A stretch of DNA of 64,000 nucleotides, taken from assembly GCA_000004985.1 (NCBI GenBank), contig GG738857.1. The stretch is one strand, 5' to 3'. The stretch is from Naegleria gruberi. Its lineage: Eukaryota. Shown here in pieces: positions 46,660-64,000 of this stretch; position 1 is the first letter of the stretch; every line of letters starts with the position of its first letter. The position numbers were made by a program, and so were the translations under genes. The notes below the pieces were generated by a model. It was not told the DNA's origin and did no database searches. It worked only from the letters and a program-made list of their open reading frames with translations.

Positions 46660-48539
46660 CTACCAATTTGGTTGTGGATTTTTAGTTCTAGATTGATATT
46701 TTCTATCAAACATTTGATATAAATAACCTTCACACATTCCTTGTACTTTGTTGAAATGACATCTAACAAATGGATCAATTTTAGATGCTAAAATAGTTCT
46801 CTTAACATTTGGTCCTAAAATTGGTAATAAGAATTTCTTAAACCACCAATTACCACCTTTAGCATCTAATTGTAAATCAACCATTGTTGCCATAATATAT
46901 GGTGGAATATAAATTCTATAAACACGTGTTTGGAACTCTTCAAATGTTTTGTAATCAATTGTAGAAACATCTCTTCTTAAAATTTCATCTAAAATTAATT
47001 GACATTCTGTCATACATGTAACACCTTGTCCATAGACAGGATTTAATGATCCAACTATTTGCAATTAGTTAATGAATTAATCAATTAGTCAATTAGTAAA
47101 TGAATCAATCTTAATAAATCTTAATAAAATTGCTTACCTGAATCACCAAGTGCAAGGAAATTTTCAAGAACATGTTGATTTCCATTTTCATCCTTATATT
47201 GTGTAATCTTTTCCCAATGATTTAAAACAGTTCCATCCTTCTTATAATTTGACCAATCAATAACTGGACCTTGTTCTAAATCACAATGTTCAAAGAATAA
47301 TTTAGTCTTTTCTGAAATATCAGGTGAAACCTTACTTAAATAATCAATACAATCTTCATGATTCTTAATTTTAACACATTCTGGATTTTTACTACCAGTT
47401 TCACCAATAATAAACATTCCCTTATCTTGTGAAACTCTATAGTAAATCATACCACTTTTAGTTGGAAAACCAACATTACCAATATATGCCCAAACAGGTG
47501 TTTTACCATCTTTTTTAAAGAATCCATCTTGCATATTTGGATCTTTCAATTTGTAAATTGCTGAAGTGTAGGTTGTTGTGAGAATAATCTTACTCTTTTC
47601 CATTTCAAATTTTCTATTAGAATCTTTGGAAAATTCTTCTTCAACCCAAATTGGTGTTTGAGTTGTTAAACCTGAACAATCAATTACTAAATCTCCATAA
47701 ACTTGTTCACCTTCTTGTAATTTAACACCTTTAACACGATGAATAATTTTAGAATCTTGTGTTTGAACCTTTTCAAATATTAAACCACTAACTGTTTGAT
47801 CATCTCTGAATTGAATTTTACCCAATGGTGATGAATTTTCATCAATAGTACTACTATTATTACTACTATTATTACTATTACTATTATTATTGGTGTTGAC
47901 ATTAGTTGAAGTAGATGATTTTCCAATTAATGATGAAGAATTCTTATTAATATTCATAATTAAATCTCTAATATAAGATTCAATTTGATATCTTGTCATT
48001 TGATAACCAGGTGGACAAATAGTTTGACCTTCAATTAAACCACATAATTTATCAGATTTACCATCAATGGCAGCATAATCTGTATTTTCAATTAAAATTT
48101 TAAAAGCTCCCATCTTTTCAATTTCATTAATAAAATCAATATTTAAATAACCACCAAATAATTTCTTGAAAATTGTAATACATCTCAATAAAAAAATGTG
48201 AGTTTGAGTTCCTTGTGGAGCAGTTGACTATTACAATAATATTTAATATTAAATATTAAATTACAATATTTAACATACCTTGTTAGTTTCATATCTCTTC
48301 TTTTCAAATAAAATAACATTTTCAAAATGGAAACAAGCATTGAGTGCAGTTGTAATACCACCAATACTACCACCAATAATAATACATGTACCTTTCTTTT
48401 TCTTATCTGAAACTTGTCCAAGTTTAGAATTTTCCAATTTGACTTGAGCATCAAAGAATGGTTTAATATTATTTAACCAATAATAATAGGCATAACATGG
48501 AAGTGCAACTAGTGCAGACAATGCAAGATATCCTAACAT
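46660..48539 (-). CDS. FAD-dependent oxidoreductase/monooxygenase-like protein with N-terminal membrane anchor
   Basis: Exons 48279..48539, 47138..48227 and 46660..47054, with introns of 51 and 83 nt. Motifs: TM anchor MLGYLALSALVALPCYAYYYW; Rossmann CIIIGGSIGGITTA...VILFEKK; PQGTQTHIFL; and the GD motif split by an intron, LALGDS|VGSLNPVYGQGVT. An Asn/Ser-rich insertion is present. Confidence 0.7.
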
Positions 48540-49180
48540 TTTGGACTATAGTATAGTTTAGGTGTTGAATTAATAATTATAAATATATTTGTATATTGGA
48601 GTGGTGTTATATGATGAAGTGGAGAAGAGTAATATGAATCAACCATTCGTTATATGGTTTAATAGTAATAGTTGTTGTTGTGATAATGATGAGAGGAATG
48701 GAGCGGCTATTAACACTTACTTTTTTTTCTATTCGAAAGATTTTAATTGATGCGTGCTGGAATGCTGTCATTCGATTGATTTGGAAAGCTACTTTGAAAG
48801 ATGGTAGTCAAAATACGGTATGAAACCTTCAACAGTTGATTATCAGATCTGATTACGAATTTTTCAAAAGGCTTTATGAAATTACTGTGAAATAATTGAT
48901 GAAAATATTATTTCTCAGAACTGGTAATTATTTGGTACCGAGTATTACGACATCTACTGTTACTTTACAGTTTTCCGATTTCAACAGCATCATCAAATGA
49001 GAAAAGCCTTATTCCTTGTTACTCCTTCATCAAACACAGATTGTGCTCACTATTAAAAATCAAATGCATTTTTTTAATAATCTAGATTATTGATAAGAAT
49101 TTTAGCAAACCAAAATGCAATCGAATTAAAATCTGCTCAAACAACTAGTTCTTTCGAATACGTTATTCATGATTGAAAAT

Positions 49181-49340
49181 GGATGTGTAGCTCAGTTGGA
49201 AGAGCAAGGAAAACTAGTCCAAGCTGTGTATCAAGTGAAGTGGATGGGAGATGGATGGGAATAAAACTTGATTAAAAAACAGCTAGACTCTGGGACAGAT
49301 CCCAGGCCCCTGGTCGCACGATCGAAACGTGTCACATCCA
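49181..49340 (+). ncRNA. tRNA-like Pol III-type gene: tRNA 5' and 3' halves separated by ~110 nt that do not fold as a canonical anticodon arm
   Basis: The 5' end GGATGTG-TA-GCTC-AGTTGGAA-GAGC gives an acceptor strand plus D arm (A box). The 3' end GCACG-ATCGAAA-CGTGT-CACATCC-A gives a T arm (B-box-like) plus a complementary acceptor strand. The T5 run 49350..49354 lies 10 nt downstream of the gene end. The interior contains a long hairpin (AGTCCAAGCTGT ... ACAGCTAGACT). I could not find a 5-bp anticodon stem consistent with a 37/38 intron. Confidence 0.4.
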
Positions 49341-49413
49341 ATAATATTAATTTTTCATATAAATTGATTGGCAAACAAATATCAACTATGACTAAAATAG
49401 TTTATTTACAATT

Positions 49414-50790
49414 TTAGTAACTTTCTATTACACACGCTTTTAAAGATGAAATAATTATTTCAAATTGTTGTGAACAATTAATATTATGATTTCTTTCTTT
49501 GCAAAATTCAATTAATGGAATAAAATTAGCAAGAAAATGAGTTGTAAAAAGAGATCTCTCACCAATTTCAGTTTTAAATTCATTCTCCAAATTGCTAGAA
49601 TCACAGCAATCGTCACAAATATCAAATGAATCATAACCATCCACTGTTGATTGATAAAATCCTGAACATGTTTGATCACATATTTTACATGTCTTTGTTG
49701 ATTCAATTTTAAAAATATCAAAATTATTTCCATACTTTTGTTTCATGTTTGGAATCAAGTTACTTATTTCTGATGGTAAATGATTTAATAATTCAAAATA
49801 TTGTAAAAATTCAACAATACTTCTTCCTACACATGTCAATTTGTGATCATTTAGGTATGATTTGATTAACCATTTTAGTGATTCTTCCATATTTGGCAAT
49901 GTACCAACACCAACACAATACATGTAAGCTACTCCATATTGTGCAAAGCAATAGTTTTGTTTGGCTGATTTTAACAACCATTCAAGTCCAAGTTTTAAAT
50001 CTTTTTCATAATATTCACCAGAATAGTAATAAATACCAATCCAATATTGAGCTAAACAATTTCCATTTCCAGCAGATTTGAAATACCAATCTGTTGCTTT
50101 TTTGAACTCTTCATTAAGTCTATAATGTCTAGCGAGTTTATGTTGATATTTACTATTTCCTAATTCAGCTCCTTTTAAAAGCCATTTTTCTTTCATTTCT
50201 GATGAATTTTTGTTTAATTTTTTCATTTTCTTTATGGCAGGAAAATAATTTAATTCTGCTGATTTTTCCAAAAATGTAATATCCTTATTATATAAATAAA
50301 TTAAATAGTTAAAAATTGGATTATTGGTTTGTTTGGCACATTTTTTATAAACCTTGTTCAATTTAATTCTACTTTTAATATTTGGTAAATCAATTTCAAA
50401 TTTTTTTAATTGTTTAATAATTGAATTTGGAGAAATAATTAATTTTTCCAATACTTTTAAACTAAAATCACCACTTAAATATAATTTTTCCAATTTTGTA
50501 AATAATTTACAATTAAAAATAGTTTTTAACATTTCAGTATTTACATTATTAAAACTACATTTACAAATTTGTAATACTATTTGACTATTACAAAATTTTT
50601 CCATATCCGAAAGTGAAACAAAACGTGTAGAAACCATTTTCAATTTTAAATAGTAATAAATAGACATATCAGACCAATATTTACAAACAAGTCTATGAAC
50701 CAACCATTCATTTGGTAGATAACTTGAAATGTGTGCTAAAATCTCAGGTGGAATTTCATCATTGAAATTTCGTTTTGATAAATTAGACAT
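49414..50790 (-). CDS. F-box / Sel1-like repeat protein with C-terminal Cys-rich (ZZ-like) zinc-finger motif
   Basis: Single 458-aa ORF. F-box IPPEILAHISSYLPNEWLVHRLVCKYWSDM; Sel1-type repeats (GNSKYQHKLARHYRL..; GNCLAQYWIGIYYYSG..; NYCFAQYGVAYMYCVGVG); C-terminal CKICDQTCSG...FDICDDCCDS. Confidence 0.75.
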   Translation of the reverse strand: MSNLSKRNFNDEIPPEILAHISSYLPNEWLVHRLVCKYWSDMSIYYYLKLKMVSTRFVSLSDMEKFCNSQIVLQICKCSFNNVNTEMLKTIFNCKLFTKLEKLYLSGDFSLKVLEKLIISPNSIIKQLKKFEIDLPNIKSRIKLNKVYKKCAKQTNNPIFNYLIYLYNKDITFLEKSAELNYFPAIKKMKKLNKNSSEMKEKWLLKGAELGNSKYQHKLARHYRLNEEFKKATDWYFKSAGNGNCLAQYWIGIYYYSGEYYEKDLKLGLEWLLKSAKQNYCFAQYGVAYMYCVGVGTLPNMEESLKWLIKSYLNDHKLTCVGRSIVEFLQYFELLNHLPSEISNLIPNMKQKYGNNFDIFKIESTKTCKICDQTCSGFYQSTVDGYDSFDICDDCCDSSNLENEFKTEIGERSLFTTHFLANFIPLIEFCKERNHNINCSQQFEIIISSLKACVIESY

Positions 50791-51212
50791 TTTTTTTAAA
50801 GTTGATCAAAACTCCACAATTTCTAATTCTATTAATAAAAGTGCAAAATCACCATCACGTTTATCACGTTTTGTCAAGTTAGAAAGTTCCAACTCAATTT
50901 TATTTAAATAAAATTTCATTGTTTTTGAATATTACTTAATCATTGAGAGTTGATGAAACCAGGCTTCAATACATGTCTTAATGAGCCTTCCGAGTTCTCG
51001 CATTGGATTAAAAAAATTGTTTAATATTCTTTACAATCCATTCAACAATGAAGGCTTGATTGAAAGGCTTTCATGAATTAGAACTCATGAACTTGATATT
51101 AATATCATTAGAAAAAATATCTTTTCATCATCAACTACCACTCTCTTGTAGAAATATTCATCATCCGATCACATCAAAGTAGTACTGATAGAAACAATTT
51201 GCTATTTTGTTC

Positions 51213-52668
51213 ATGGGTAATAAATCTTTTAAACAAGCGAACAACAAATCAATTTCATCAACAAGTTTATCATCACAACCCAATTCCAATTTTAATAACA
51301 ATAACAACAACAATAATAACATGTATCAAAGAAATACTCATCATCTTAGAACTGGTGGGAAGAGTGTAGTTTTTGGTTGCGGATATAATTCAGCATCATT
51401 ACTCGGAGTATCACACTCTGATGTTGAAGATAATGGAGTTCATGGATCAAATTCCTTTTCTCAAGATGTAACACAATTTGTTTTCTTATCAACATTACAA
51501 GAATTATTGAATAATGATTCTCCTGGACAACATGTTTGTCAAATTGTTGTTCAATTTTCCAAAACCTACTTTTTAACATCTCATGGTCATGTCTATACTT
51601 CATTTCCATTAGCAAGAGATGTTCAATTTGATAGTATTTTACCTGATCGTGTTGTGGAAATGAGATCAGGACAGAATAGAACATTATTTAGAACTGAATT
51701 TGGTCAAATTTATGTAAAAGCAGATGGTCCACTCTCTAAAATTACTGGAGTTACTAATACACAAGTAAATAATGTAAAATTATTTGGAGTTGGTGGTTTA
51801 CATTACTGGTTATTAGATGATGAAACTAATCGTTTATATGGTGAAGGAGAAATTAATGGAGCTAGTGTTGAAAAAGTTATAGAATTGAATGATTATTTAC
51901 AGAAAGATGAAAAAGTTAGAGATATTGTTACAGGTGGTAATTCGTATGTTTTTTTTATTTCATTTTATAGTAACAATTATATATAACATTGTTTAAATAA
52001 TGATGAATTGAAATTTGAAATTTGATAATAGATTTGTTTTAATAACAAATAAGAATAATATTTATGTATATGGAGAGAAGGAAGCTTTTGGATCAACAGT
52101 TGATGAACATTATTCTAAACCAACAAGATTAAGACAATTTGATGGAATGGTAAAATCAGTTGTTTGTGGATGGTATTTTACAATTATTTTAACATTTAAT
52201 GGACAATTATGGATGGCAGGTAGAAATACATATCAACAACTTTCATCTAAAAATCTATCATCTCATGATAATGTTGTTCAATGGTTTATAGATGATTCAT
52301 TAGTATTAAATCCAAATGAAGAAATTGATCAAATTGGATCTGGATCAGATCACGTTTTAATATCAACAACAATTGGAAGAATTTTCACAAGAGGAATGAA
52401 TACATATGGTCAACTTGGTAGAGATAATAGAACTCAATCTGGAGTATTTATGGAACCAAGTTTTAAAAATCAAAATTACAAGGAAATTATTTCTAAATTT
52501 GTTGGACCAAAATTTTCAATTTCATTTGCAGATAATAATTTTAATACTTTAAGTTCCTTTTTAATTATTCATTCAGTTAGAGAATCAAAGGAACTTATTC
52601 AAATGAGATCAAAACTTTTAAATTGTTCAAAACAATCTTTATTATCAGATTTAGTAATTTTACATTAA
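51213..52668 (+). CDS. RCC1-repeat (regulator of chromosome condensation-like) protein
   Basis: Exons 51213..51943 and 52032..52668, with an 88-nt intron (GTATGT..TAG, phase 2). RCC1-like blades: VVFGCGYNSASLLG; GGLHYWLLDDETNRLYGEGE; IYVYGEKEAFGS; GQLWMAGRNTYQQL; GRIFTRGMNTYGQLGRDN. Confidence 0.7.
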
Positions 52669-53247
52669 AACATTTTAATTTATTATTTAATATATTATTT
52701 TGATGATTGTAAAGTTAAAATGATGATCATGTGAGGATTAGTTATTATTGATTCAAGTCATTAGAGATAGATGAATAATAATTGATGAAATTTGAATGAA
52801 AATTTATTGTTTTTAGAATGTACTGTCAACATAATTTTTCCATAAAAGTAACAATTGTGAATCTTCGTAATGTTAAATATCAAAAATCAAAAACTGATTG
52901 ACGTTGTGTAAAACCAAACGTCATCAAAAATCGACTCGTCATTAAAAAAAATATCTGAACAGCTCTTAACAATAACAATCATCATCACCTGTTTCTGATA
53001 ATAAAATTATTATTATTTGATTATTATCGGTTTCTAATAACAATAGAGGTTAAGTGGCAGTAGAGTAATATAGAAGTTTTTTATAGAAGGAGTAGAAACA
53101 AATCATCATCATCATCATCTCTCTCCAGTTACTCACTCCATAACTATATTGTTATCATCATCAATATCATCAATTTATTATTATTATTAATAATATTAAA
53201 TAGTGTACATATTACAATAATAATAATAATAATATTAAAAAATTAGA

Positions 53248-54992
53248 ATGTCAGGTTTTTCATCACAATCTATTCAAGCATCACTTGTTAGACCATCCAA
53301 ATATAGACATTTAAATGGATTTGAAACTAAAAGTGAGAGATATGAAAATATTAATGTTGGTTATGGTCAAAAATTAAGTAATACATTAAAAACCAATGGT
53401 TCAATCTATGCATTACCATTTAATGTAACAGGTGGTACTTTATCATTTAAATATTTAAATGATTATGGTAGATGGGATGAAAAATTACAAAATTATGGAA
53501 TTATTAAGGCTCACAAGGGAAGATTATCAGATTTTGATATTTCCCCTTTTAGAAATAGAGATCATTTAGTAACTGTTTCTAATTCTGATAATATTATTAG
53601 ATATTGGAAATTACCTACAAATAATAATGATAATGATAATAATAGCAATGATATTTCTTCTTCTAATATTACTTCTACTAATACTTCCAATATAAATGGT
53701 AATAATACTATATATAGAACCTATGAAGAAATGGATTGTGATTTGGAATTAAATGATACAAATAATACAAAATCAACTATTAGTAGAATATCATTTAATC
53801 CACTTGTTGATAATTCACTTGTTAGTATTCAAGGAGATTTAATCCATTTTTGGGATGTTGAAAAAAAGAAAATTTTAAATTCAATTCAAAATTTACCAAA
53901 TCCATCAATTTCTAGTAAAACATTACCAACAGTTGAAAGTTTAGGATGGAATGAATATGGTAATTTATTTATATGTGGTACAAATGATCGTTCCATTAGA
54001 ATTTATGATATTAGATTATCTTCCAATTATAGTAATAATAATAATAATAATAATAATCAATCTAATAATCAACAAATATGTATAACTGAAGGACATTCAA
54101 GTATGAAACCATTTCAAACATTATATTGTGAAAATATGTATATATGTAGTGTTGGATTTTCTAAAAATGGAGGTAGAGAATTAGCCATGTATGATATTAG
54201 AAAAGATTTGAAATGTTTACAAAGAATTTCCATTGATAATGGTGGTTCAGTTTTAACACCATTTTATGATTCAGATATTAAATTACTATATTTAGTAGGT
54301 AGAGGAGATGGTAATATTAGATTTTATGAATTAGAAGGTGGTATTATGCATTATTTAAATGATTATAATTGTCAATCTACATCTGCATCTGTTGATTGGT
54401 TACCAAAATGGAAATTAAATGTTAATAATTTTGAATTGGCTAAATTTTTAAGATTAACAAATGAAAAAACAATTGAAACTCTTTCAATGAGAGTTTCTAG
54501 AAAATCAAATATTGAACAATATTTTCAAGAAGATATATTTCCAGATACTTGGAATGGTCAACCTATTTATAATAATACTAATCAATGGTTAAATACTATT
54601 ATTAATAATAATACTACTTCTATTAATAATAATACTATACAAAGTAATATTAATAATAGTAATGGTAATGGTAATGAAAATTTGAATGAAAATGAATTAT
54701 TACAAACTAGACCAACCATGTCATTAAAACCATCTGATAAAATATCTATCTATGATGTACCTATTAGTGAAGGTGGTAAAATTAGACCATCCACTACTAA
54801 TTTAAGTAAATTACATTCATCATCATCTTTAAATAGTATTGAAAATACTCCAACTACTACATTAGATACCCCAACTACTATTACAAATTATAATACAAAT
54901 GAACAAGTTGATGATGAATTTAAAGATTTAAATGAAAATCAACAATTTGATGACAATGAAGAAGAAGAAGAAGAATTAATTACCATTAATAC

Positions 54993-55023
<31 letters not shown>

Positions 55024-58000
55024 GAACATAATCATAATAATTTTAATGATTTAAATGATATAGATTCATTAATGTCACCAACAGAAGCAACTTCCAAATC
55101 CATTTCCATTGGATTAGTTTCTAGTTTAGGTAAAAATGTAGCACTTGCATCAGCTCATATTCCATGGTATAAAAGAATTACAATGGGAATGGGTTATTAT
55201 TTAGGAATGGCAATGTTTTTAATATTTAAATTTACATTCATTTCAATACCTGTTTGGGTTTATCGTAAATCTACTGGTTACACTCCTCCACCTATTAAGG
55301 AACGTTTCGAACAAGTACCTGTTATTAAGGTTATTAAGAAACCTTCAAGAAAAGTTTCATCAAATATCAATTCTTCTACAAGTGTTAAACGTAATATTGT
55401 TGGTGGTGGTGCTAATACTAATAATAATAATACTGATAATAATAATATAACACCTACTACACCAAATGATTATATTAAATCATCAGTATCTAATACATCA
55501 TTATCATTAACTCCACAAACTCCAAGTGGTAGCGGCAATAATTTAATCATTTCAGATCCACTTGCAAGTGAATCAAGTCGATTACTATCACGTGAATATG
55601 GTAGAATTATTATGGAAGAATATATTGGTAAATTAACTAAAGAAGATATATTTCCTAAAAGAGCACATGATAAAGATACCAATCTAAAACAAGTTCTTGA
55701 AATTGATGTAGTTGACTTGAAAAAAGGTCTCACTCATGTACTAATTTGGGTAAAAGGACGTAAAAAATCGAGAGCAACACTTGCACCACTTTATTGGACA
55801 AGTTTAAATCATAATGATTGTTTCATTTTGGATTGTGGTAAAATTTGTTACATTTACAATGGACAATATTCTAACAAATTATGTAGAGCTAAAGCATTAG
55901 ATATTTCACAAATGATTAAATATAAGGAAAGAGGTGGTGATTGTCAAGTTGTAATTATTGATGGTATTGATTATTCTAATAATGGAAATAATTCTAATAA
56001 TAATTCTAATAACAATGACATGACACCATTATATAAAAAACAAGTATTACAATTTTGGAAAGAATTAGGATTAACAAGTGAAAATGAATTTTGTGAATTA
56101 TTAAATATTCACTTTCCTAAAAAGGAAGATTCTAGTAGTAGTAGTAATAATAATGTATTAAACAGATTAAAATTAACAGATAAATCTAAATTTACATCAA
56201 AAGATGAATTAAATGATGATTTATATCAACAATTTAATGATTTAGGTCAAAGATTATATAAATTAAATTCAGAAATCTTTGAAGAACTTCCACTAAAAAT
56301 AGAATTAAATGAAACACAAGATGAATACATAGAAAGAATATCACCATATATGTTAAGTGTTATAAAATTAAATCAAATACCAGGTGGTGAAATTGTAAAT
56401 TTAAAAGAATTAGAAAATTTATTAAATAATGAAAAGAATTTAATTGATCCAAATAAGGTATCAGAAATTACACAACCATCACATCATGTTTTACATTCTG
56501 ATCAATGTTACATTTTTGAAAGTTTATTTACAAATGAAGTTTTCTTTTGGAGTGGAAAACAAAGTAATTTAAATATTAGAAAATGGGGAATTGCTATTGC
56601 TAAAAAATTAGCACAATATAGATCTTTAAATAATAATCCATTTTCATTGAAAAATCCAATTTTACAACGTTTTAAATCTATTTTAAATAATTCTATTAAT
56701 ATTACTATAAATGGAAGTAATTCTATAAATGGAAATCAATTACCTAATAATAGAAAATATTTATCATCCATTACACGTGTTATAGAAGAAGGTGAACATT
56801 CTATTTATAAACAAAAATTTAGTGATTATCCAGGAATGTTAATGATTCAAACACAATCACAAGAATCACGTGGAAATGTTGCAGAAAAAAAGAAACAATC
56901 AAAAATTAATTTTTTAGAATTATTAAAATCTAAAAATAATTTAAAAGAAGAATTAAAATCTAATTCACAAAAACAATTTATTGATCCAACTTTAGTAACT
57001 ACCATATATAGTAGTAAAATTAGAATGTGGAGAGTGAGTGATTTTCAAAAAATACCATATCAACATTTAGGTCATTTCTTTACAGGTGATGCATTTATTA
57101 TTTTATTTACCTATACAAAAATAGAAGGTGGTAAATCTTTCCATAAATTATTCTTTTGGCAAGGAAGAGATATTAAAAAGAAAGATAAAGGAACATCTGC
57201 ATATAAAACTGTTGAAATTAATGAAATGATTGATGAAGGTGTTGTAGAAAATCAAATTAGAGTTGTACAAGATAAGGAACCTAAACTATTTTTAGATTTA
57301 TTTAAATTTAACCCAAATAGTATGGAAGAGAGTACTACTATTGAAAATGATAAACATTATAAGAAGGTACCTTATTTTATTCATAAGGGTAAATATAGAC
57401 CTTCTGTTTTGGAATCTTTTGAAAAGGCTAACAAATTATCTTCTATTATTGGTAATATTTCTAATAATAATAATAATGGAAATATTAATCCAAAATCATC
57501 ACCATTACCAAAATTAAATATTTCTAATAATACAAATGATAATAATAATACAAATAATACCACTACAACTACACCAACAACACCTACAATTTCAAATGAT
57601 GAAGAAATGAATCTTGCACCTGTTAAATTATTTACTTCCATAAATGGAAATTTAGATGAAAATGAAAAATTTTCACCTCAAATTTTACAATTCCAAACAG
57701 AAATGATTGAAAGAATAATTTCTAAAAATATAAAATTAGAATATTTAAAATCCTATGATTTTAGAAATGGAATTTTATGTGAAACTGATGATTTACATCC
57801 AAATTATTTAAATCCATTTAATTTAATAATTTTTTCAAATTTAAATTTTAATGTTTATTTAAATAGAATTGAACTAAATAAGGAAATTGAACAAGATGAT
57901 TTAAAAACTATTATTTATTATGGAAAATATTGTAAAGAATCTGATAAGAAATTTATTGAAAATAATGTTTTAAATTTATTTAATAATAATAATATAATTA

Positions 58001-58908
58001 CTATAAATGGAAATAATCAAGAATTATTAGAAAATGTATTTACTAAGGAAATTGATCCAACATTTGAATATTTTATTTCTAGATTTAATAATTATTTAAA
58101 TACTTTTGAATTTAAAAATAATTATAATATTTCCTTTTATAATATTAATGATCATTCAGGTGAATTTACTTTAAATAGATTGGATCCATTTGGTGAAATT
58201 GATTTATCTTCTTCACAAGCCTTTATTTTAGATTGTCTTGATTTAGAAGGTAAAATCTATGTTTGGATTGGAATGTTATGTAATATTGAAACAAAGAAAT
58301 TTGCACTTTCAACTACCATTCAATATTACTATACATGGAAATCACAAACTTGTAATGATGAATTTTATAAGAAGAAACCTCAAAATGATGACATGGATGA
58401 TTTTGATCCAAGTAAATTTTTACAAAAATCAGATGAACAATCATTACTTGTCATTCAAGAAATGGAAGAACCACAAGAATTTACAAAACATTTCATTTCA
58501 TGGTCAATTAATTCAACTTCATTCAAAGTTAGATTTAAACAATTACAAGATCCAAATTTAATTTCAAAGGGTTTTGTTAAAACACCAAGAACTCCAAGAA
58601 GATCAAATATTAATGTTCAAATTTCTAAACATGAAAAGAATTTATTTGAACATTCTTCATCCATTTTTGAAATTGAACATTGTTCAAATGTTTTACAATT
58701 ATATAACAAATTATTTACTCACAAAACTTATAGTTATGCAATTTTAACAAGTGGTGCAAATATTCCAGAAGGTATTGATAAATCTAAATTAGAATCTTAT
58801 TTATCAAATGAAGAATTCCAAAAAGTATTTGGAATGGATAAAAAGAAATTTGCTACTTTACAAAATTGGAAACAAACCTCTTTGAAAAAGGAAAAGAATT
58901 TATTTTAA
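53248..58908 (+). CDS. Villidin-like giant: coronin-type WD40 N-terminus + gelsolin repeats + C-terminal villin headpiece
   Basis: Single 1886-aa ORF. Coronin-like start: RPSKYRHLNGFETKSERYENINV...NIIRYWKLP...IRIYDIRL. Gelsolin-type segments: LIWVKGRKKSRATLAPLYWTSLNHNDCFILDCGKICYIYNG; IRMWRVSDFQKIP...GDAFIILFTY...LFFWQGRD; AFILDCLDLEGKIYVWIG. Headpiece: LSNEEFQKVFGMDKKKFATLQNWKQTSLKKEKNLF. Long Asn/His/Thr low-complexity linkers are present. Confidence 0.85.
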
Positions 58909-58975
58909 ATCACTCGCATATATTATTATTAAATTTGTATATTTTTTAAAATGATCATATTCTTTCAAAAGAAGA

Positions 58976-61607
58976 TTAATAATTTGTACATCCATTTTCC
59001 TTCATGTACTTTTCTGCATCAAGTCTAGAAGTAAATGATTTAAATTTTGCTCCTTGAAATTGATCAACTTGAATTTTACATTCGTCCCACGTATTAAATA
59101 TACCTGTTCTTCTACCAATACAAACACAATATAATTTACCACTCTTTGACATTCCACTACTTCCACTTCCACTTCCACTACTACCATAACTTTTAGATGT
59201 ATTACTGTTACTGTTGGATGTTATTGCTCTTCCAGGATTAAGTTTTGATTTTTTCATAATTTGTGAATGATAAGATGTTCCACTCTGAGTAGAATTTGAA
59301 TCATTTTTACGTTTCTTTGTATTTCCACCACCACTTGTAAAATCTGATAAATCTAAATTTTGTAAAGTTTCTTCAAATATTTTTCTTCTCTTTTCAAAAG
59401 ATTCTTCATTCTTTTTTAATAAATTTTCAATAAATAAATCTTTTGAACTTGTATCTTGTGCTGAATATTGTTCTTGTTTTTTAAGTTTGTTATAAAAATC
59501 AATTGCTTCTCTATTTATATGTCTAGTTAAATTATATGAATTAAAATTTGTAACTTTTAAATATTTCATTGTTTTTGCACGTGATAATGCAACATAGATT
59601 TGACCTGGACTAAACACTGTTGATAAATCAATTACACATTTTTGTAATGTTAATCCTTGTGTTTTATGTACTGTCATGGCTATTATTATTAAATTTAAAA
59701 ATATAAAATATTAAATATTAAATATTAATATAAATTAAATATTAATATAAAAATATTAAATTATTAAATATTAAATTAAAAAACATACCATAAGCTAATT
59801 TTAAAGGAATTTGAATTCTAACACCTTTAGATTTTTTTGGACCATCTGTTTCAAAAATGGTAGGATGTACAATTTTAATAATTTTAATTTCCTTTCCATT
59901 TTCTTCTCTTGTAAAAACCACTTTTGGAAATAATTCACCATTTTCATTAATATATTGTTCAGCATATTGTTTAATATTCTTATTTGAACTTTGTAAATCA
60001 CTTGGTGTTTGTTTAATAAAACCAATAATTTCACCTCTTGTTCCATTCACTAATTGATTTGTAAAATCATTTTTAATTATCATTACTTGTGCTCCAATAC
60101 GTAAATTAATTTCCTGTGATGCATTAGATGAATTAAAATTTGTTAATATAGCACTTTTAATATATTCTTTAATAGTTGGATGATCTACTTTTGGATCATA
60201 ATCTCCATATGAAAAAAATGTTTGATCTCTATAAGTATATTGTGGTGGTGATAATTTTAATAATTCTGTATCATTCACTGTATCTACATTCTTATTTAAT
60301 GTATGAATAACTGTTGCCTTTTCAATTCCATCAAATTTATTATTTTCTAATCTTTTTAATGTTTGTACTATATTATTATTAGTTTGACAACATCTAATAG
60401 AATTTAATATTGATATCCATTCTTTTTCTTCCTGTCTAAATACATTACTCAATTCAAATGTATATTTAATTGTACGTTCCCAACATGTAGCTTTAAAACA
60501 CATTTCCTTTTTTTGATAAATAGTTTCACCATGTTCATTTTTAAATGATTTACTAACAGGTGGTAACTATAAATATATTTGATAGATTTTGAATAGATAT
60601 TGTAGTAGAATTATTATTATTAGATTAGATTAATGTGAATATGAATATTATATTTTGAGATTAAATTGAATGGTATTAGATTTGATTGGTGTGAATATGA
60701 TTGAAAATCATTAAAAAAAACAAACCTGTAAGAAATCACCACATAAAATAACTTGAATTCCACCAAATGCAGGTAATTGTTTCATAATAACTTCTTTAGG
60801 TGCTCTAGATGCAGCAATTTCAAAGAAACATCTAATTTCAGTTGCAATTGATTCTAATTGATCAAAATATTGACCATCAATCATTGAAATTTCATCAACA
60901 ATTAAAACATCAACACTTCTCCATTCTTTTTCATTTCTCCAAGCTGTTTTACTATCAACTTTACCATTATCCAATGTTCTAATACCTGCAAATGAGCTAA
61001 TTAATTTTTAAATAAAGTATTACAATATAATTACAATGTTAAATATAAGTATACTATAATAATTAGAAATATTTACATACTGTATAGTTGATCCACCAAT
61101 ATTAACAGCAGAAATACCAGTTGAAGCAGTCACCACAACTTTCTTTTGTTGAACATTTGATAAAGTTTGAATAATACATTCTAATAAGAAACTTTTACCA
61201 GTTCCAGCAACACCTGTAATAAAAACTGAATGTCCTTCCATTACACATTTCAAAACATTCATTTGTTCATCACTTAATTTTGATAACAAGCCTTGATAGG
61301 TATCACATTGATTTAAATCAAAACTAGCTAATTCGGGAAATATTGTTGAAGGTAATTCTTGTTGTTTACTTTTCAATTTCATATCATTTGCAAATGATGT
61401 AATTGATCCGAGTGTTTTTGGAGGTGCTTTAGTTGTTGTTGCTGTTGATGTTGTTGTACTATTACTAACACCAGTACTAAAGGAAGGCTTTTTAGATGCT
61501 GAAGCTTTCTTAATTTTAGGTGGTGCACCTCCTCCGGAAGAAGGCATTGATCTTGGTTTTGGCTTTGCATTTGCAGGTACAAATACTACTCCATTCTTTT
61601 CTAACAT
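58976..61607 (-). CDS. PIF1-family 5'-3' DNA helicase fused to a C-terminal RNase H1-type hybrid-binding domain (HBD / Cauli_VI-like)
   Basis: Exons 61081..61607, 60726..60996, 59789..60566 and 58976..59679, with introns of 84, 159 and 109 nt, all phase-consistent. Helicase motifs are restored across junctions: Walker A GVAGTGKS; GGSTI|H SFAGI; LIVDEISMI; LCGDFLQ|LPPV; LAY|AMTVHKTQGLTL; GQIYVALSRAK. The C-terminal 45 aa (LYCVCIGRRTGIFNTWDECKIQVDQFQGAKFKSFTSRLDAEKYM) match the HBD pattern. I place the start at ATG 61607. Confidence 0.8.
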
Positions 61608-62226
61608 TATGATGATGAATTTGTGTTCAAAGCCTTTGTTGAATGTTTGAAGGCTTTTTTTTTGATTCAAAGTGTTTTTAACGTTCTATTAAAAATTAGA
61701 ACATTTTGGCGGGTTGAACGATTCTTGAACTAAGACACTTCTCAATAGAATTTATTAACAGGTAACAATGTCGAAATAACTTTATGATTAAGGGCATCCT
61801 GCTAACTCCCACTGATTTAAAAAGTCAGACGAAATTCACTAAAGTGGTAGTAGCATTGAATAATAATAAATAATTTAATTTTAAAATTGTAAAACGAAAT
61901 GATTATTATTCAATAATATCTTCACTGTTGGAGCACAATTTCCAATAATAATGCGATCATCAATGTCATTGTCATTTCCTTTCACATCATAATCACAAAA
62001 AAATCACTGATTCAAATCTATTCAATTAGCCTTTGTATTTGACTCTACTATTGTTGTTTCTCTGATTTTAACGTTTGATTCTCTCCAACTCACCTCTATT
62101 GGAGCCTTCATAACTTATAATACTCAACAGCGCTCTCTTTCACGAAATATCACAACACCTCATCAATAATAATTCATTGAAAAAAAACAATTCTATTGTA
62201 TCATATATATATTGTAGAGCAAAGAG

Positions 62227-63675
62227 ATGAATAACCGATTACTTGATGATGATCATGACGATGATAATGATTCACTCCTTACACCTGGATTAAATCAACA
62301 ACAACAACAACAACAAGCCTTCAGTAAGTCAACAAATCCAAACTCAACTAGTAGTTTACACGACCGATATGATGATGATGATGATATTTCTGGTGATGAA
62401 TATTTACCTCATAATTCACTATTATTGAATAATCAAAAAGACTCCAATACAACACAAGCCTCTAAAACAAATAAGAAATGGTGGAATTTAAAAAAGGATC
62501 GTAAATCACACGTCGTTTGTTGGATGATGATTTTAGGATCTGGATTATTATTGACTTCTATTGGTATCGTTTCAATGGTTTTATTAGTCATTTACTCTCC
62601 AACTCCAAAGGAAATGTATGTTTTCATATCGTTTTGATATATTTAAATAATAATATTATTTTTTACTTCAATATTTTTTATTCAATTAAATGAATGAAAA
62701 AATTTTGTAATAATTTTAATAATAATTTTAATAATAATTTAAAAATAGTTTGAATGGTACAAGTCCAATTAGTGAAAAACAATGGAAAGAAATAGTATTA
62801 GAAACATTTGGAGTAGTGAGTGGATTTGTTATTGGTATTGGAATAGTTTTATCAGTTACACNNNNNNNNNNNNNNNNNNNNNNNNNNNNNNNNNNNNNNN
62901 NNNNNNNNNNNNNNNNNNNNNNNNNNNNNNNNNNNNNNNNNNNNNNNNNNNNNNNNNNNNNNNNNNNNNNNNNNNNNNNNNNNNNNNNNNNNNNNNNNNN
63001 NNNNNNNNNNNNNNNNNNNNNNGCACAATTGTCATCTCAATTGAATCACAACAAGAAACAGCAAGTCAAGCTCAAAGAGAAGTTGGTACTAAATCAACTT
63101 CAGTGATTGCTGTATTGAAGAATATTAATTTTGTAACAAAATTAAGAACTGCCTCTATTACATTATATCCAATTTATCCATCAACATTGAATCCATCTGT
63201 TACAATACCATATAATGAAAGTATGAGAATTGTTGGATATAAATCATCTAATACTATTTCATTCACAGTTACAAGTTTAACAATTATTGGTGAAGTATTG
63301 GATAAATTAATTGAATTGGGTGTAACACAAATATCAAGTATTAATATGCAAGCAAATGAAACAGCTGTTAATAATGCACGTGAACAAGCTCTTTCATTGG
63401 CTGTACAAGATGCTAAATCTAAAATTGAAAAAGTTGTTGCAACATTGAATCCTGATTTAACCATTGAAACTATTAGAAGTAGAATGTATACCTATGATGT
63501 TAATATTGATAGTGTTAATAGACCAATTCCAATCGCATTCCCTTATTTTGCTCAAGGTGCTTCATATAGAATGGATGCTGCTCAATCACAATCTGTTCCA
63601 GTAGTAGGTGGTGATCAGACTATTGATTCATATGTTACTGTAAAGATGGTTTTTAGACAACAACAACAACAATAG
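62227..63675 (+). CDS. Membrane-anchored SIMPL/DUF541-domain protein (interrupted by an assembly gap)
   Basis: Exon 1 is 62227..62615, followed by a 133-nt intron 62616..62748 (phase 2). Exon 2 runs 62749..62861, then the gap, then 63023..63675. Two hydrophobic segments (VVCWMMILGSGLLLTSIGIVSMVLLVIY; VVSGFVIGIGIVLSV). The C-terminal ~200 aa follow the DUF541 pattern (...ITLYPIYP...IVGYKSSNTISFTV...LIELGVTQISSI...AREQALSLAVQDAKSKIEKV...). Confidence 0.6.
62862..63022. other. Assembly gap (161 N)
   Basis: Run of N inside the SIMPL-domain gene. Confidence 1.
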
Positions 63676-63942
63676 AATATTTGAATTATGATTCCTTATT
63701 GATTTTTTTGAGATTAATTTGAAAGACCTTTTTGTATTTTTTAATAATAAATTGCGAAACTTTTTTGTCAAGTTTTTGGAAGAAATTTCTGACAAGCCTC
63801 TTGTGAAGATAACTTGAAAGGCTTTGTTCTTCGAGCAAAAAATAGAATATCACCACTCAAAAAAATACCTAAGTGATCCACCTAGTGATTCACCCCAACA
63901 ACTGTAAATAACAATCATTCCGAATCAAAGCCTTTGTACAAT

Positions 63943-64000
63943 ATGTCCCGTAAAACAACCTCTCAAGAAGAAAAGCTCGACATTGTTGTTGACTTTTTCC
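63943..64000 (+). CDS. 5' end of a gene running off the window (first 19 codons, MSRKTTSQEEKLDIVVDFF...)
   Basis: An ATG at 63943 followed by open frame to the window end. The S..EEK...F start is faintly reminiscent of Mnd1-family N-termini, but 19 residues cannot support a call. Confidence 0.25.
   Translation, partial: MSRKTTSQEEKLDIVVDFF

What the first reader, a model, noticed from the sequence alone, without database searches (positions are those of the whole stretch)
58976..61607. PIF1 helicase fused to an RNase H1-type RNA:DNA hybrid-binding domain
After removing three introns, all PIF1 helicase motifs are contiguous. The protein ends with a low-complexity Ser/Gly/Asn linker and a ~45-aa module (LYCVCIGRRTGIFNTWDECKIQVDQFQGAKFKSFTSRLDAEKYM). 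That module matches the hybrid-binding domain found at the N-terminus of eukaryotic RNase H1 and in caulimovirus protein VI. PIF1-family helicases are known to unwind RNA:DNA hybrids efficiently. A built-in HBD would be a neat targeting device for R-loops or Okazaki/telomeric hybrids. I do not recall this fusion being described.
Basis: partly seen in the sequence, partly recalled or inferred. Interest (0 to 1): 0.6.

Follow-up and report, generated by a model that had tools for sequence, protein, structure and literature searches.

The report
PIF1 helicase with RNase-H1 hybrid-binding tail
This is a real four-exon gene from a Naegleria-type amoeba that encodes a PIF1 DNA helicase ending in the small RNA:DNA-hybrid-binding domain of RNase H1; the combination is sound and suggestive, but it was reported for amoebae in 2016 and is common in public databases.

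Summary
On the minus strand, four exons (61607..58976) joined by three GT..AG introns give a 759-aa protein. It has a complete PIF1 helicase core (Pfam PIF1 1e-36; PDB PIF1 structures to 1e-68), a ~130-aa low-complexity linker and a C-terminal RNase H1 hybrid-binding domain (HBD; PF01693, 58.6 bits against a cut-off of 21). An AF2 model of the tail superposes on human HBD 3BSU (target-normalised TM-score 0.92).

The fusion does not depend on any splice. Helicase motifs V (its second half) and VI lie in the same uninterrupted ORF as the HBD.

The locus is orthologous and syntenic with a Naegleria lovaniensis gene that has the same architecture. Willaertia and Acrasis also carry a C-terminal HBD.

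PIF1+HBD is not new:
- Andis et al. 2018 cite Harman & Manna 2016 for amoebal PIF1s with "RNase H1-like RNA binding" accessory domains.

[quoted passage not shown] I found no biochemistry on any such protein. Interest is modest.

The parts
58976..61607 (-). Whole PIF1-HBD gene from ATG to stop: 4 exons, 759 aa
   Evidence: Searches give the model. One search aligns it end to end with N. lovaniensis P0001 (66% identity in the A1 multiple alignment; 69% by BLASTP), including the start (MLEKNGVVFVPA / M-NRNGIYFVPA). One search recovers the exons independently with a profile.
61081..61607 (-). Exon 1: N-terminal low-complexity region (aa 1-109) and the start of helicase domain 1A, with Walker A GVAGTGKS at 61214..61191
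   Evidence: The donor is GTATGTAA at 61080. The intron lies at the same position as in N. lovaniensis.
60726..60996 (-). Exon 2: motif Ia continuation (TIHSFAGI), motif II VLIVDEISM (60908..60882), PIF1 signature region DQLESIATEIR (60863..60831), and the start of motif III
   Evidence: One search aligns it to the Pif1 structure 7OTJ.
59789..60566 (-). Exon 3: rest of motif III (LPPV), motif IV FELSNVFRQ (60458..60432), 2B/SH3-like domain (60104..60018), and the first half of motif V
   Evidence: One search gives Pif1_2B_dom PF21530 at 29.3 bits against a cut-off of 23.9.
58976..59679 (-). Exon 4, a single uninterrupted ORF: second half of motif V (AMTVHKTQG), motif VI (59605..59573), linker, HBD and stop
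   Evidence: One search lists the ORF 58976..59677 (233 aa). One search gives the acceptor AATAATAG. The intron position matches N. lovaniensis.
59138..59530 (-). Linker, aa 576-706: a short conserved helical-looking stretch (SKDLFIENLLKK..FEETLQNLDL), a KKRK basic cluster (59317..59306, NLS-like, inferred) and a Ser/Gly/Asn tract
   Evidence: Identity to P0001 is only 37% here, against 80% in the helicase and 61% in the HBD.
59006..59137 (-). RNase H1-type hybrid-binding domain, aa 707-750
   Evidence: Pfam PF01693: E=7e-16, 58.6 bits, cut-off 21, profile positions 1-44 of 44. PDB sequence hits: 3BSU 1.7e-10 and 1QHK 1.8e-10. The AF2 model has pLDDT 86 and a beta-beta-alpha-beta-alpha fold. 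The top Foldseek hit is 3BSU, target-normalised TM-score 0.92, rmsd 0.9 A.
59680..59788 (-). Intron 3 (109 nt, GT..AG), containing an AAAATAT-type 7-nt tandem repeat. If retained, it terminates the protein after ...LAYGMFFNLIFNNLIFLY

Best explanation
This is a nuclear, single-copy cellular gene of a Naegleria-type heterolobosean amoeba. It encodes a PIF1-family SF1B 5'-3' DNA helicase whose C-terminus carries one copy of the RNase H1 hybrid-binding domain on a flexible linker of about 130 residues. Proposed mechanism, by analogy with RNase H1, where the same domain raises hybrid affinity and gives processivity through a flexible connection: the HBD docks on the minor groove of an RNA:DNA duplex, and this raises the local concentration of the helicase motor at hybrids. 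The motor loads on adjacent single-stranded DNA, moves 5'-3' and strips the RNA strand. PIF1 enzymes already do this preferentially. Likely substrates are co-transcriptional R-loops met by replication forks, Okazaki primer hybrids, and telomerase-RNA or telomeric hybrids. Shown here: the gene structure, the identity of both domains, the physical fusion, orthology and synteny, retention of four of five known hybrid-contact residues, and stronger conservation of the HBD than of the linker. Inferred: hybrid binding by this tail, its effect on helicase targeting, nuclear localisation, and the substrates.
For: Gene model and motifs. Domains: (PIF1 127 bits, Pif1_2B 29 bits, PF01693 58.6 bits). The helicase core matches solved PIF1 structures 7OTJ, 5O6B and 6HPH at 1e-68 to 1e-59. 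The tail matches the human and yeast RNase H1 HBDs, and its AF2 model superposes on the HBD/hybrid co-crystal 3BSU. Contact residues Y709, W723, F738 and K739 correspond to human Y29, W43, F58 and K59, and are kept in ours and in nearly all PIF1-fused HBDs. W43A abolishes hybrid binding in human HBD, and K59A/K60A lower it about 10-fold (PMC6846478). The HBD is 61% identical to N. lovaniensis against 37% for the linker, so the domain is under constraint. The N. lovaniensis locus has the same neighbour and the same first and last intron positions. The fusion recurs with the HBD at the opposite terminus in a separate helicase clade, which argues that selection favours the combination. [quoted passage not shown]
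Against: There is no biochemical or cellular data for any PIF1-HBD protein in the papers I could search. Human K60 is Ser740 here and Ser in most PIF1-fused HBDs, so affinity or specificity may differ from RNase H1. HBD-family domains also bind dsRNA, though more weakly (my own knowledge of the yeast and human domains). No transcript data were available, so expression and splicing rest on homology. An HBD bound ahead of the motor could in principle hinder unwinding rather than help it.
Confidence: 0.7

Rival explanations
1. The tail is a generic double-stranded nucleic-acid or dsRNA binder, or an organelle or nucleoid tether. It gives the helicase general substrate affinity or processivity, as the WYL domain does for bacterial TePif1, rather than hybrid-specific targeting.
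For: Human K60 is replaced by Ser in ours and in most fused HBDs. [quoted passage not shown] HBD-family domains were first described as dsRNA-binding (my own knowledge).
Against: W43, K59, Y29 and F58 equivalents, which form the DNA-strand-specific aromatic and basic patch, are retained. The model is nearly superposable on the hybrid-bound human domain. PIF1 motors track DNA, so a dsRNA tether has no obvious use.
Confidence: 0.17
2. The HBD is a regulatory or protein-interaction module, for example autoinhibition of the helicase relieved on hybrid binding, or recruitment of a partner, rather than a simple tether.
For: The linker is long and contains a conserved helical segment. Other amoebal PIF1s carry non-nucleic-acid accessory domains such as U-box, CUE and Orc3 (U-box PF04564 in the Dictyostelium PIF1).
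Against: No evidence of intramolecular contact was sought or found. The residues conserved in the HBD are the nucleic-acid-contacting ones.
Confidence: 0.08
3. The helicase is part of a mobile element (a Helitron or Helentron-type Pif1-like helicase) or a recent horizontal acquisition, and not a host genome-maintenance gene.
For: Pif1-like helicases are common in Helitrons, and amoebal Pif1 phylogeny is scattered (PMC8788227). The only solved-structure match to a transposon helicase, Helraiser 7LCC, is weak (2.8e-11).
Against: There is no Rep/HUH domain. The window holds a single copy. The gene has spliceosomal introns, two at positions shared with N. lovaniensis, and conserved synteny with the WD40-gelsolin-villin-headpiece neighbour. 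The closest solved relatives are cellular PIF1s.
Confidence: 0.03
4. The fusion is a gene-model artefact: two adjacent genes, a helicase and a small HBD protein, wrongly joined.
For: No RNA-seq was available here. Many stand-alone short HBD proteins exist.
Against: The second half of motif V, motif VI and the HBD lie in one stop-free ORF of 233 codons. The same continuous arrangement occurs in N. lovaniensis, Willaertia, Acrasis and in intronless metagenomic genes P0004 and P0008.
Confidence: 0.02

Closest known systems
Amoebal PIF1 helicases with accessory domains (Harman & Manna 2016, Mol Phylogenet Evol 103:64, as summarised by Andis et al. 2018, bioRxiv 10.1101/163188)
   Same: A PIF1 helicase core fused to an 'RNase H1-like RNA binding' accessory domain in amoeboid protists, identified bioinformatically with a proposed nucleic-acid-binding role.
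   Different: I could not read the original paper, so I cannot say whether it covers Naegleria, or which terminus carries the domain. It reported no biochemistry, as far as the citing papers say.
Naegleria lovaniensis hypothetical protein C9374_014019 (P0001), Willaertia magna ABK040_016370 (P0002) and Acrasis kona PIF1 (P0010)
   Same: Orthologues or close homologues with the identical order PIF1 core, linker, C-terminal HBD. P0001 is 69% identical, lies next to the same neighbour gene and shares two intron positions.
   Different: They come from different species. The linker and N-terminus diverge strongly, and N. lovaniensis has extra or shifted internal introns.
N-terminal HBD-PIF1 proteins of Agaricomycetes (e.g. 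Volvariella P0012, Phanerochaete P0018 and P0069, Hypsizygus P0024) and Physarum (P0009)
   Same: The same two domains in one polypeptide, with the same HBD contact residues retained.
   Different: The HBD is at the N-terminus, sometimes in two tandem copies (P0153, P0155, P0166, P0269). The helicase cores form a separate clade in a rough NJ tree, so this is probably an independent fusion. These fungi also keep a canonical HBD-less PIF1 (e.g. Volvariella P0047).
Eukaryotic RNase H1 (human 3BSU/6VRD, yeast 1QHK)
   Same: The same HBD fold and key residues, joined by a flexible linker to a catalytic module that acts on RNA:DNA hybrids.
   Different: The catalytic partner is a helicase that displaces RNA, not an RNase H nuclease that degrades it. 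There is no RNase H domain. The HBD is C-terminal rather than N-terminal. Human K60 is Ser here.
Thermotoga elfii Pif1 with a C-terminal WYL domain (Andis et al. 2018)
   Same: A PIF1 motor with a small C-terminal accessory nucleic-acid-binding domain that tunes coupling of ATPase to unwinding.
   Different: WYL binds ssDNA and is bacterial. The fold is unrelated and the predicted ligand differs.

Membership tests
PIF1 family (SF1B helicases) | Significant match to the PIF1 helicase profile above the curated threshold | tested here: met
   PF05970: E=1e-36, 127.1 bits against a cut-off of 25.9. PDB PIF1 chains match at 1e-68 to 1e-59.
PIF1 family (SF1B helicases) | Complete set of SF1 motifs I, Ia, II, III, IV, V and VI with intact Walker A (GxGKS) and Walker B (DE) | tested here: met
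   GVAGTGKS, TASTG, VDEISM, GDFLQLPPV, VFRQ, VHKTQG and YVALSRA are all present and invariant across the clade.
PIF1 family (SF1B helicases) | PIF1 signature motif between motifs II and III | tested here: met
   DQLESIATEIR aligns with NKLNEIAKNLR of Pif1 structure 7OTJ. It is followed by a ~16-residue clade-specific insertion before FGGIQ.
PIF1 family (SF1B helicases) | 2B SH3-like domain | tested here: met
   PF21530: 29.3 bits against a cut-off of 23.9, aa 415-449.
PIF1 family (SF1B helicases) | ATP-dependent 5'-3' unwinding activity | not testable with these tools
   Needs recombinant protein.
RNase H1 hybrid-binding domain (Pfam PF01693, 'Cauli_VI') | Full-length profile match above the curated threshold | tested here: met
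   58.6 bits (63.9 for the tail alone) against a cut-off of 21; profile positions 1-44 of 44.
RNase H1 hybrid-binding domain (Pfam PF01693, 'Cauli_VI') | Three-stranded sheet plus two helices (beta-beta-alpha-beta-alpha) superposable on solved HBDs | tested here: met
   The AF2 model has pLDDT 86 with elements E-E-H-E-H. Foldseek top hits are 3BSU (target-normalised TM-score 0.92, rmsd 0.9 A) and 1QHK. This is a predicted structure, not a solved one.
RNase H1 hybrid-binding domain (Pfam PF01693, 'Cauli_VI') | Hybrid-contact residues equivalent to human Y29, W43, F58 and K59 | tested here: met
   Y709, W723, F738 and K739. For their functional importance see PMC6846478.
RNase H1 hybrid-binding domain (Pfam PF01693, 'Cauli_VI') | Second lysine of the FKK motif (human K60) | tested here: not met
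   Ser740. The position is Ser in most PIF1-fused HBDs, with Lys, Ala or Gly in a few. The consequence is unknown.
RNase H1 hybrid-binding domain (Pfam PF01693, 'Cauli_VI') | Preferential binding of RNA:DNA over dsRNA and dsDNA | not testable with these tools
   Needs binding assays.
RNase H1 (the enzyme) | RNase H catalytic domain with the DEDD active site | tested here: not met
   No RNase H family appears among the Pfam hits at E<=0.1. The protein is not an RNase H1; it only borrows that enzyme's targeting domain.
Helitron/Helentron RepHel transposase | HUH Rep endonuclease domain N-terminal to the Pif1-like helicase, and a multicopy element | tested here: not met
   There is no Rep domain. 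The window holds a single copy. Synteny and introns are shared with N. lovaniensis. Genome-wide copy number was not testable.

The most novel reading that the evidence does not exclude
PIF1 and the RNase H1 hybrid-binding domain have been joined at least twice independently. The HBD is C-terminal in Heterolobosea and some unplaced environmental eukaryotes. It is N-terminal, sometimes duplicated, in Agaricomycete fungi and in Physarum and other amoebozoan-like sequences. Such convergent fusion would mark RNA:DNA hybrid removal as a core, selected activity of a dedicated PIF1 paralogue. It would also supply a natural, experimentally tractable 'R-loop-targeted helicase' that the R-loop literature I searched does not discuss. 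The convergence itself may not have been pointed out before.
Probability: 0.4. Interest if true: 0.45.

Novelty: already known. Interest (0 to 1): 0.3.

Why it matters
Natural domain fusions act as 'Rosetta stones': they point to activities that belong together. A PIF1 motor permanently wired to the cell's best-characterised RNA:DNA-hybrid reader supports the view, drawn from yeast genetics and biochemistry, that stripping RNA from DNA is a genuine physiological job of PIF1 helicases. It also offers a compact natural protein for testing how hybrid recognition and unwinding are coupled. The recurrence at either terminus in distant lineages strengthens that reading. The architecture itself has already been reported for amoebae and is automatically annotated in many genomes. 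The open value therefore lies in biochemistry and cell biology, not in the discovery of the fusion.

Tried and rejected
(1) A profile search of the word-indexed protein database with the HBD alignment A3, meant to survey all HBD architectures, returned only 24 short HBD-only fragments and said nothing about helicase fusions. The exhaustive representative search with the last exon, classified with my own HMMs, replaced it.

(2) The key paper, Harman & Manna 2016, is not held. A title search found only two citing papers. I therefore rely on the one-sentence summary in Andis et al. 2018 and cannot confirm which species or which terminus they reported.

The neighbouring 1886-aa protein is not on record. 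The source species therefore remains 'Naegleria-type'. No exact match exists in the collection even though orthologues do.

(4) A mixed alignment of the tail with full-length N-terminal-HBD proteins (A2) misaligned. I used trimmed domain segments instead.

(5) The bacterial promoter and terminator scan matched the shuffled expectation and is irrelevant for a eukaryote.

(6) I considered and rejected two-gene mis-joining, a Helitron origin, and a true RNase H1. The reasons are given under the rival explanations and in the membership table.

(7) The NJ tree is a rough distance tree without support values. I use it only to show that C-terminal and Agaricomycete N-terminal fusions sit in different helicase clades. 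Acrasis P0010 did not join the C-terminal clade in it, which I treat as unresolved.
Full report
**Observation**

The region was read on the minus strand. A four-exon model was assembled: 61607..61081, 60996..60726, 60566..59789 and 59679..58976. The three introns are 84, 159 and 109 nt and all have GT..AG ends. The CDS is 2280 nt and encodes 759 residues.

After splicing, all SF1B/PIF1 motifs are contiguous:
- Walker A GVAGTGKS
- motif Ia, running into TIHSFAGI across junction 1
- motif II VLIVDEISM
- the signature region DQLESIATEIR
- motif III FGGIQVILCGDFLQ|LPPV, across junction 2
- motif IV FELSNVFRQ
- the 2B domain
- motif V LAY|AMTVHKTQG, across junction 3
- motif VI IYVALSRAK

The quoted tail is present at aa 708-751, behind a Ser/Gly/Asn-rich stretch. 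A six-frame scan of the whole window with HMMs I built from the homologues finds one HBD (59143..58982). It also finds four colinear helicase-core pieces that coincide with the exons. This recovers the model independently.

**Is the fusion real?**

The terminal exon is one stop-free ORF of 233 codons (58976..59677). It holds the second half of motif V, motif VI, the linker and the HBD. The HBD is therefore joined to indispensable helicase sequence without any splice. The only splice needed is the one that completes motif V. If intron 3 were retained, the protein would stop after ...LAYGMFFNLIFNNLIFLY, leaving a dead helicase.

Orthologues bridge all three junctions without gaps. In the N. lovaniensis locus (L001) the first and last introns sit at the same codon positions, and the last exon again runs from AMTVHKTQG to the HBD. 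Two environmental homologues, P0004 and P0008, encode the whole PIF1-linker-HBD protein in a single intronless ORF.

**Domain identities**

Pfam results:

| Family | E-value | Bits | Cut-off | Extent |
|---|---|---|---|---|
| PIF1 (PF05970) | 1e-36 | 127 | 25.9 | aa 110-314 |
| Pif1_2B_dom (PF21530) | 7e-7 | 29.3 | 23.9 | aa 415-449 |
| Ribonuclease H1 N-terminal domain (PF01693, 'Cauli_VI') | 7e-16 | 58.6 | 21 | aa 707-750, all 44 profile positions |

No RNase H catalytic domain and no Rep domain is present.

The helicase core matches solved PIF1 structures: 7OTJ at 1.3e-68, yeast 5O6B at 1.8e-63 and human 6HPH at 1.5e-59. The tail matches the human RNase H1 HBD (3BSU, 1.7e-10) and the yeast domain (1QHK, 1.8e-10) by sequence.

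An AlphaFold2 model of the last 61 residues was built on a 19-sequence alignment of PIF1-attached HBDs. It has mean pLDDT 86 and the expected strand-strand-helix-strand-helix order. Its best Foldseek matches in the PDB are the five chains of 3BSU, the HBD bound to a 12-mer RNA/DNA duplex, with target-normalised TM-score up to 0.92 and rmsd 0.7-1.2 A. 1QHK comes next, and nothing else falls below E=3.

**Hybrid-contact residues**

Numbering is offset by 680 from human RNase H1:

| This protein | Human equivalent |
|---|---|
| Y709 | Y29 |
| W723 | W43 |
| F738 | F58 |
| K739 | K59 |
| S740 | K60 |

Y709, W723 and K739 are invariant among the seven C-terminal-HBD proteins and are kept in nearly all 22 PIF1-attached HBDs aligned. 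The K60 position is Ser in most of these, with Lys, Ala or Gly in a few.

For the human domain, W43A abolishes heteroduplex binding, and the K59A/K60A substitutions lower it about 10-fold (PMC6846478). So four of five known contact residues are kept. The effect of K60S is unknown. A basic residue (K737) occupies the position of human R57.

**Whose gene is it?**

The closest protein is a Naegleria lovaniensis hypothetical protein (P0001, 69% identity, same Pfam architecture). Next are Willaertia magna (P0002, 53%) and Acrasis kona (P0010), all Heterolobosea.

In N. lovaniensis the gene converges on a 2014-aa gene with DUF1899/WD40, gelsolin and villin-headpiece domains. In the window the same kind of gene (53248..58908, + strand, 1886 aa) ends 67 bp from the PIF1 stop codon and has DUF1899, WD40, gelsolin and VHP domains. 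The locus is therefore orthologous and syntenic, and the window is from a Naegleria-type amoeba with roughly 22-34% G+C.

Neither this protein nor its neighbour is in the exact-match collection. I cannot name the species.

Identity to P0001 by region is 80% in the helicase, 37% in the linker and 61% in the HBD. Against Willaertia the same regions give 68%, 27% and 57%. The HBD is thus conserved as a domain while the tether drifts.

**How common is the combination?**

- Among the 120 best PIF1 homologues, 22 carried PF01693.
- Locating the HBD with a small HMM showed two arrangements. It is C-terminal in the Heterolobosea and in the environmental proteins P0004, P0006 and P0008. It is N-terminal in Agaricomycete fungi (Volvariella, Phanerochaete, Tricholomella, Hypsizygus, Antrodiella, Mycena), in Physarum and in other environmental sequences.
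- An exhaustive phmmer search with the last exon against 1.84 billion 50%-identity representatives, classified with my HMMs, brought the total to 45 distinct PIF1+HBD proteins. Eight have a C-terminal HBD and 37 an N-terminal one. Four have two tandem N-terminal HBDs.
- In a rough neighbour-joining tree of the helicase core, the Naegleria/Willaertia/P0004/P0006/P0008 proteins form one clade. The Agaricomycete N-terminal fusions form another, separate from the canonical HBD-less fungal PIF1 clade. Volvariella has one of each, P0012 and P0047.

Opposite termini in different helicase clades make at least two independent fusions likely. The tree has no support values, and Acrasis was not placed with the other C-terminal forms.

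**Literature**

Full-text searches pairing Pif1 with 'hybrid binding domain' or 'hybrid-binding domain' returned only R-loop reviews that mention the two separately. The decisive statement is in Andis et al. [quoted passage not shown] That paper is not held. I cannot verify whether Naegleria, or the C-terminal arrangement, was among its cases. The Dictyostelium PIF1 in my hit list does carry the U-box the paper describes (P0014, PF04564), which fits the summary. I found no biochemical study of any PIF1-HBD protein.

**Mechanism**

Established background:
- PIF1 helicases suppress R-loop-mediated instability (PMC5413955).
- In RNase H1 the HBD, tethered by a flexible connection, raises hybrid affinity (PMC6846478, plus my own knowledge of the 3BSU work).

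The most economical reading is that the C-terminal HBD, on a ~130-residue flexible tether, concentrates the helicase on RNA:DNA duplexes. The motor then loads on flanking single-stranded DNA and displaces the RNA. A KKRK cluster in the linker (59317..59306) and the lack of an obvious presequence suggest a nuclear protein; this is inference only.

The rivals are a generic dsRNA or nucleic-acid tether, a regulatory or autoinhibitory module, mobile-element origin, and a mis-joined model. Each is weighed in its own section. The last two are effectively excluded by the single ORF, the introns, the synteny and the absence of Rep.

**Comparison and membership**

The protein passes every sequence-level test for the PIF1 family. 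Its tail passes those for the RNase H1 HBD family, except for the K60 equivalent. It is not an RNase H1, because it has no catalytic domain, and it is not a RepHel transposase. It works 'like RNase H1' only in its presumed substrate recognition. The chemistry is unwinding, not cleavage.

**Verdict**

The novelty claim is not. The architecture was reported for amoebae in 2016, is annotated in orthologues, and recurs in dozens of eukaryotic PIF1s. What remains open is function, since no such protein has been characterised, and possibly the point that the fusion arose more than once at opposite termini. Interest is 0.3.

Noticed in passing
window 53248..58908 (+): A giant single-ORF gene (1886 aa) combines a coronin-like DUF1899/WD40 N-terminus, gelsolin repeats and a C-terminal villin headpiece, with long Asn-rich and His-rich tracts (a villidin-like architecture, from my own recollection). 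It converges on the PIF1 gene with only 67 bp between the stop codons. The same neighbour is present in N. lovaniensis (2014 aa).
   Followed up: partly
window 48001..64000: G+C falls from about 0.31-0.34 over most of the window to 0.22-0.28 in the last 16 kb, the part that holds the villidin-like and PIF1 genes. No cause was sought.
   Followed up: no
window 60767..60831 (aa ~232-252): A ~16-residue insertion (CFFEIAASRAPKEVIMKQLPA) lies between the PIF1 signature motif and motif III. It is absent from the solved Pif1 7OTJ and conserved in the Naegleria/Willaertia clade, and shorter in P0004 and P0006. Its function is unknown.
   Followed up: no
window 59698..59781 (intron 3): The last intron is largely a degenerate 7-nt tandem repeat (AAAATAT, about 12.6 copies).
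   Followed up: no
L002 3001..5409 (metagenome contig Ga0606064_0385) and L003 358..2430: The environmental C-terminal PIF1-HBD genes P0004 and P0008 are intronless. P0004 sits on a compact contig among trypsin, spermine synthase, PfkB and TPR genes. The organism is unidentified, so the C-terminal arrangement may extend beyond Heterolobosea.
   Followed up: partly
proteins P0153, P0155, P0166, P0269: Some N-terminal PIF1 fusions carry two tandem HBD copies, as yeast RNase H1 does.
   Followed up: no
window 62227..62637 (+): A 136-aa ORF lies divergent from the PIF1 gene. It has poly-Gln and Asp-rich tracts and a hydrophobic C-terminal segment, and has no Pfam match. It may be the first exon of a larger gene.
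   Followed up: no
whole window: Neither the PIF1-HBD protein nor its neighbour occurs in the exact-match or 90%-cluster collections, although orthologues from N. lovaniensis and Willaertia do. The source genome is either unannotated at this locus or absent from those collections.
   Followed up: partly
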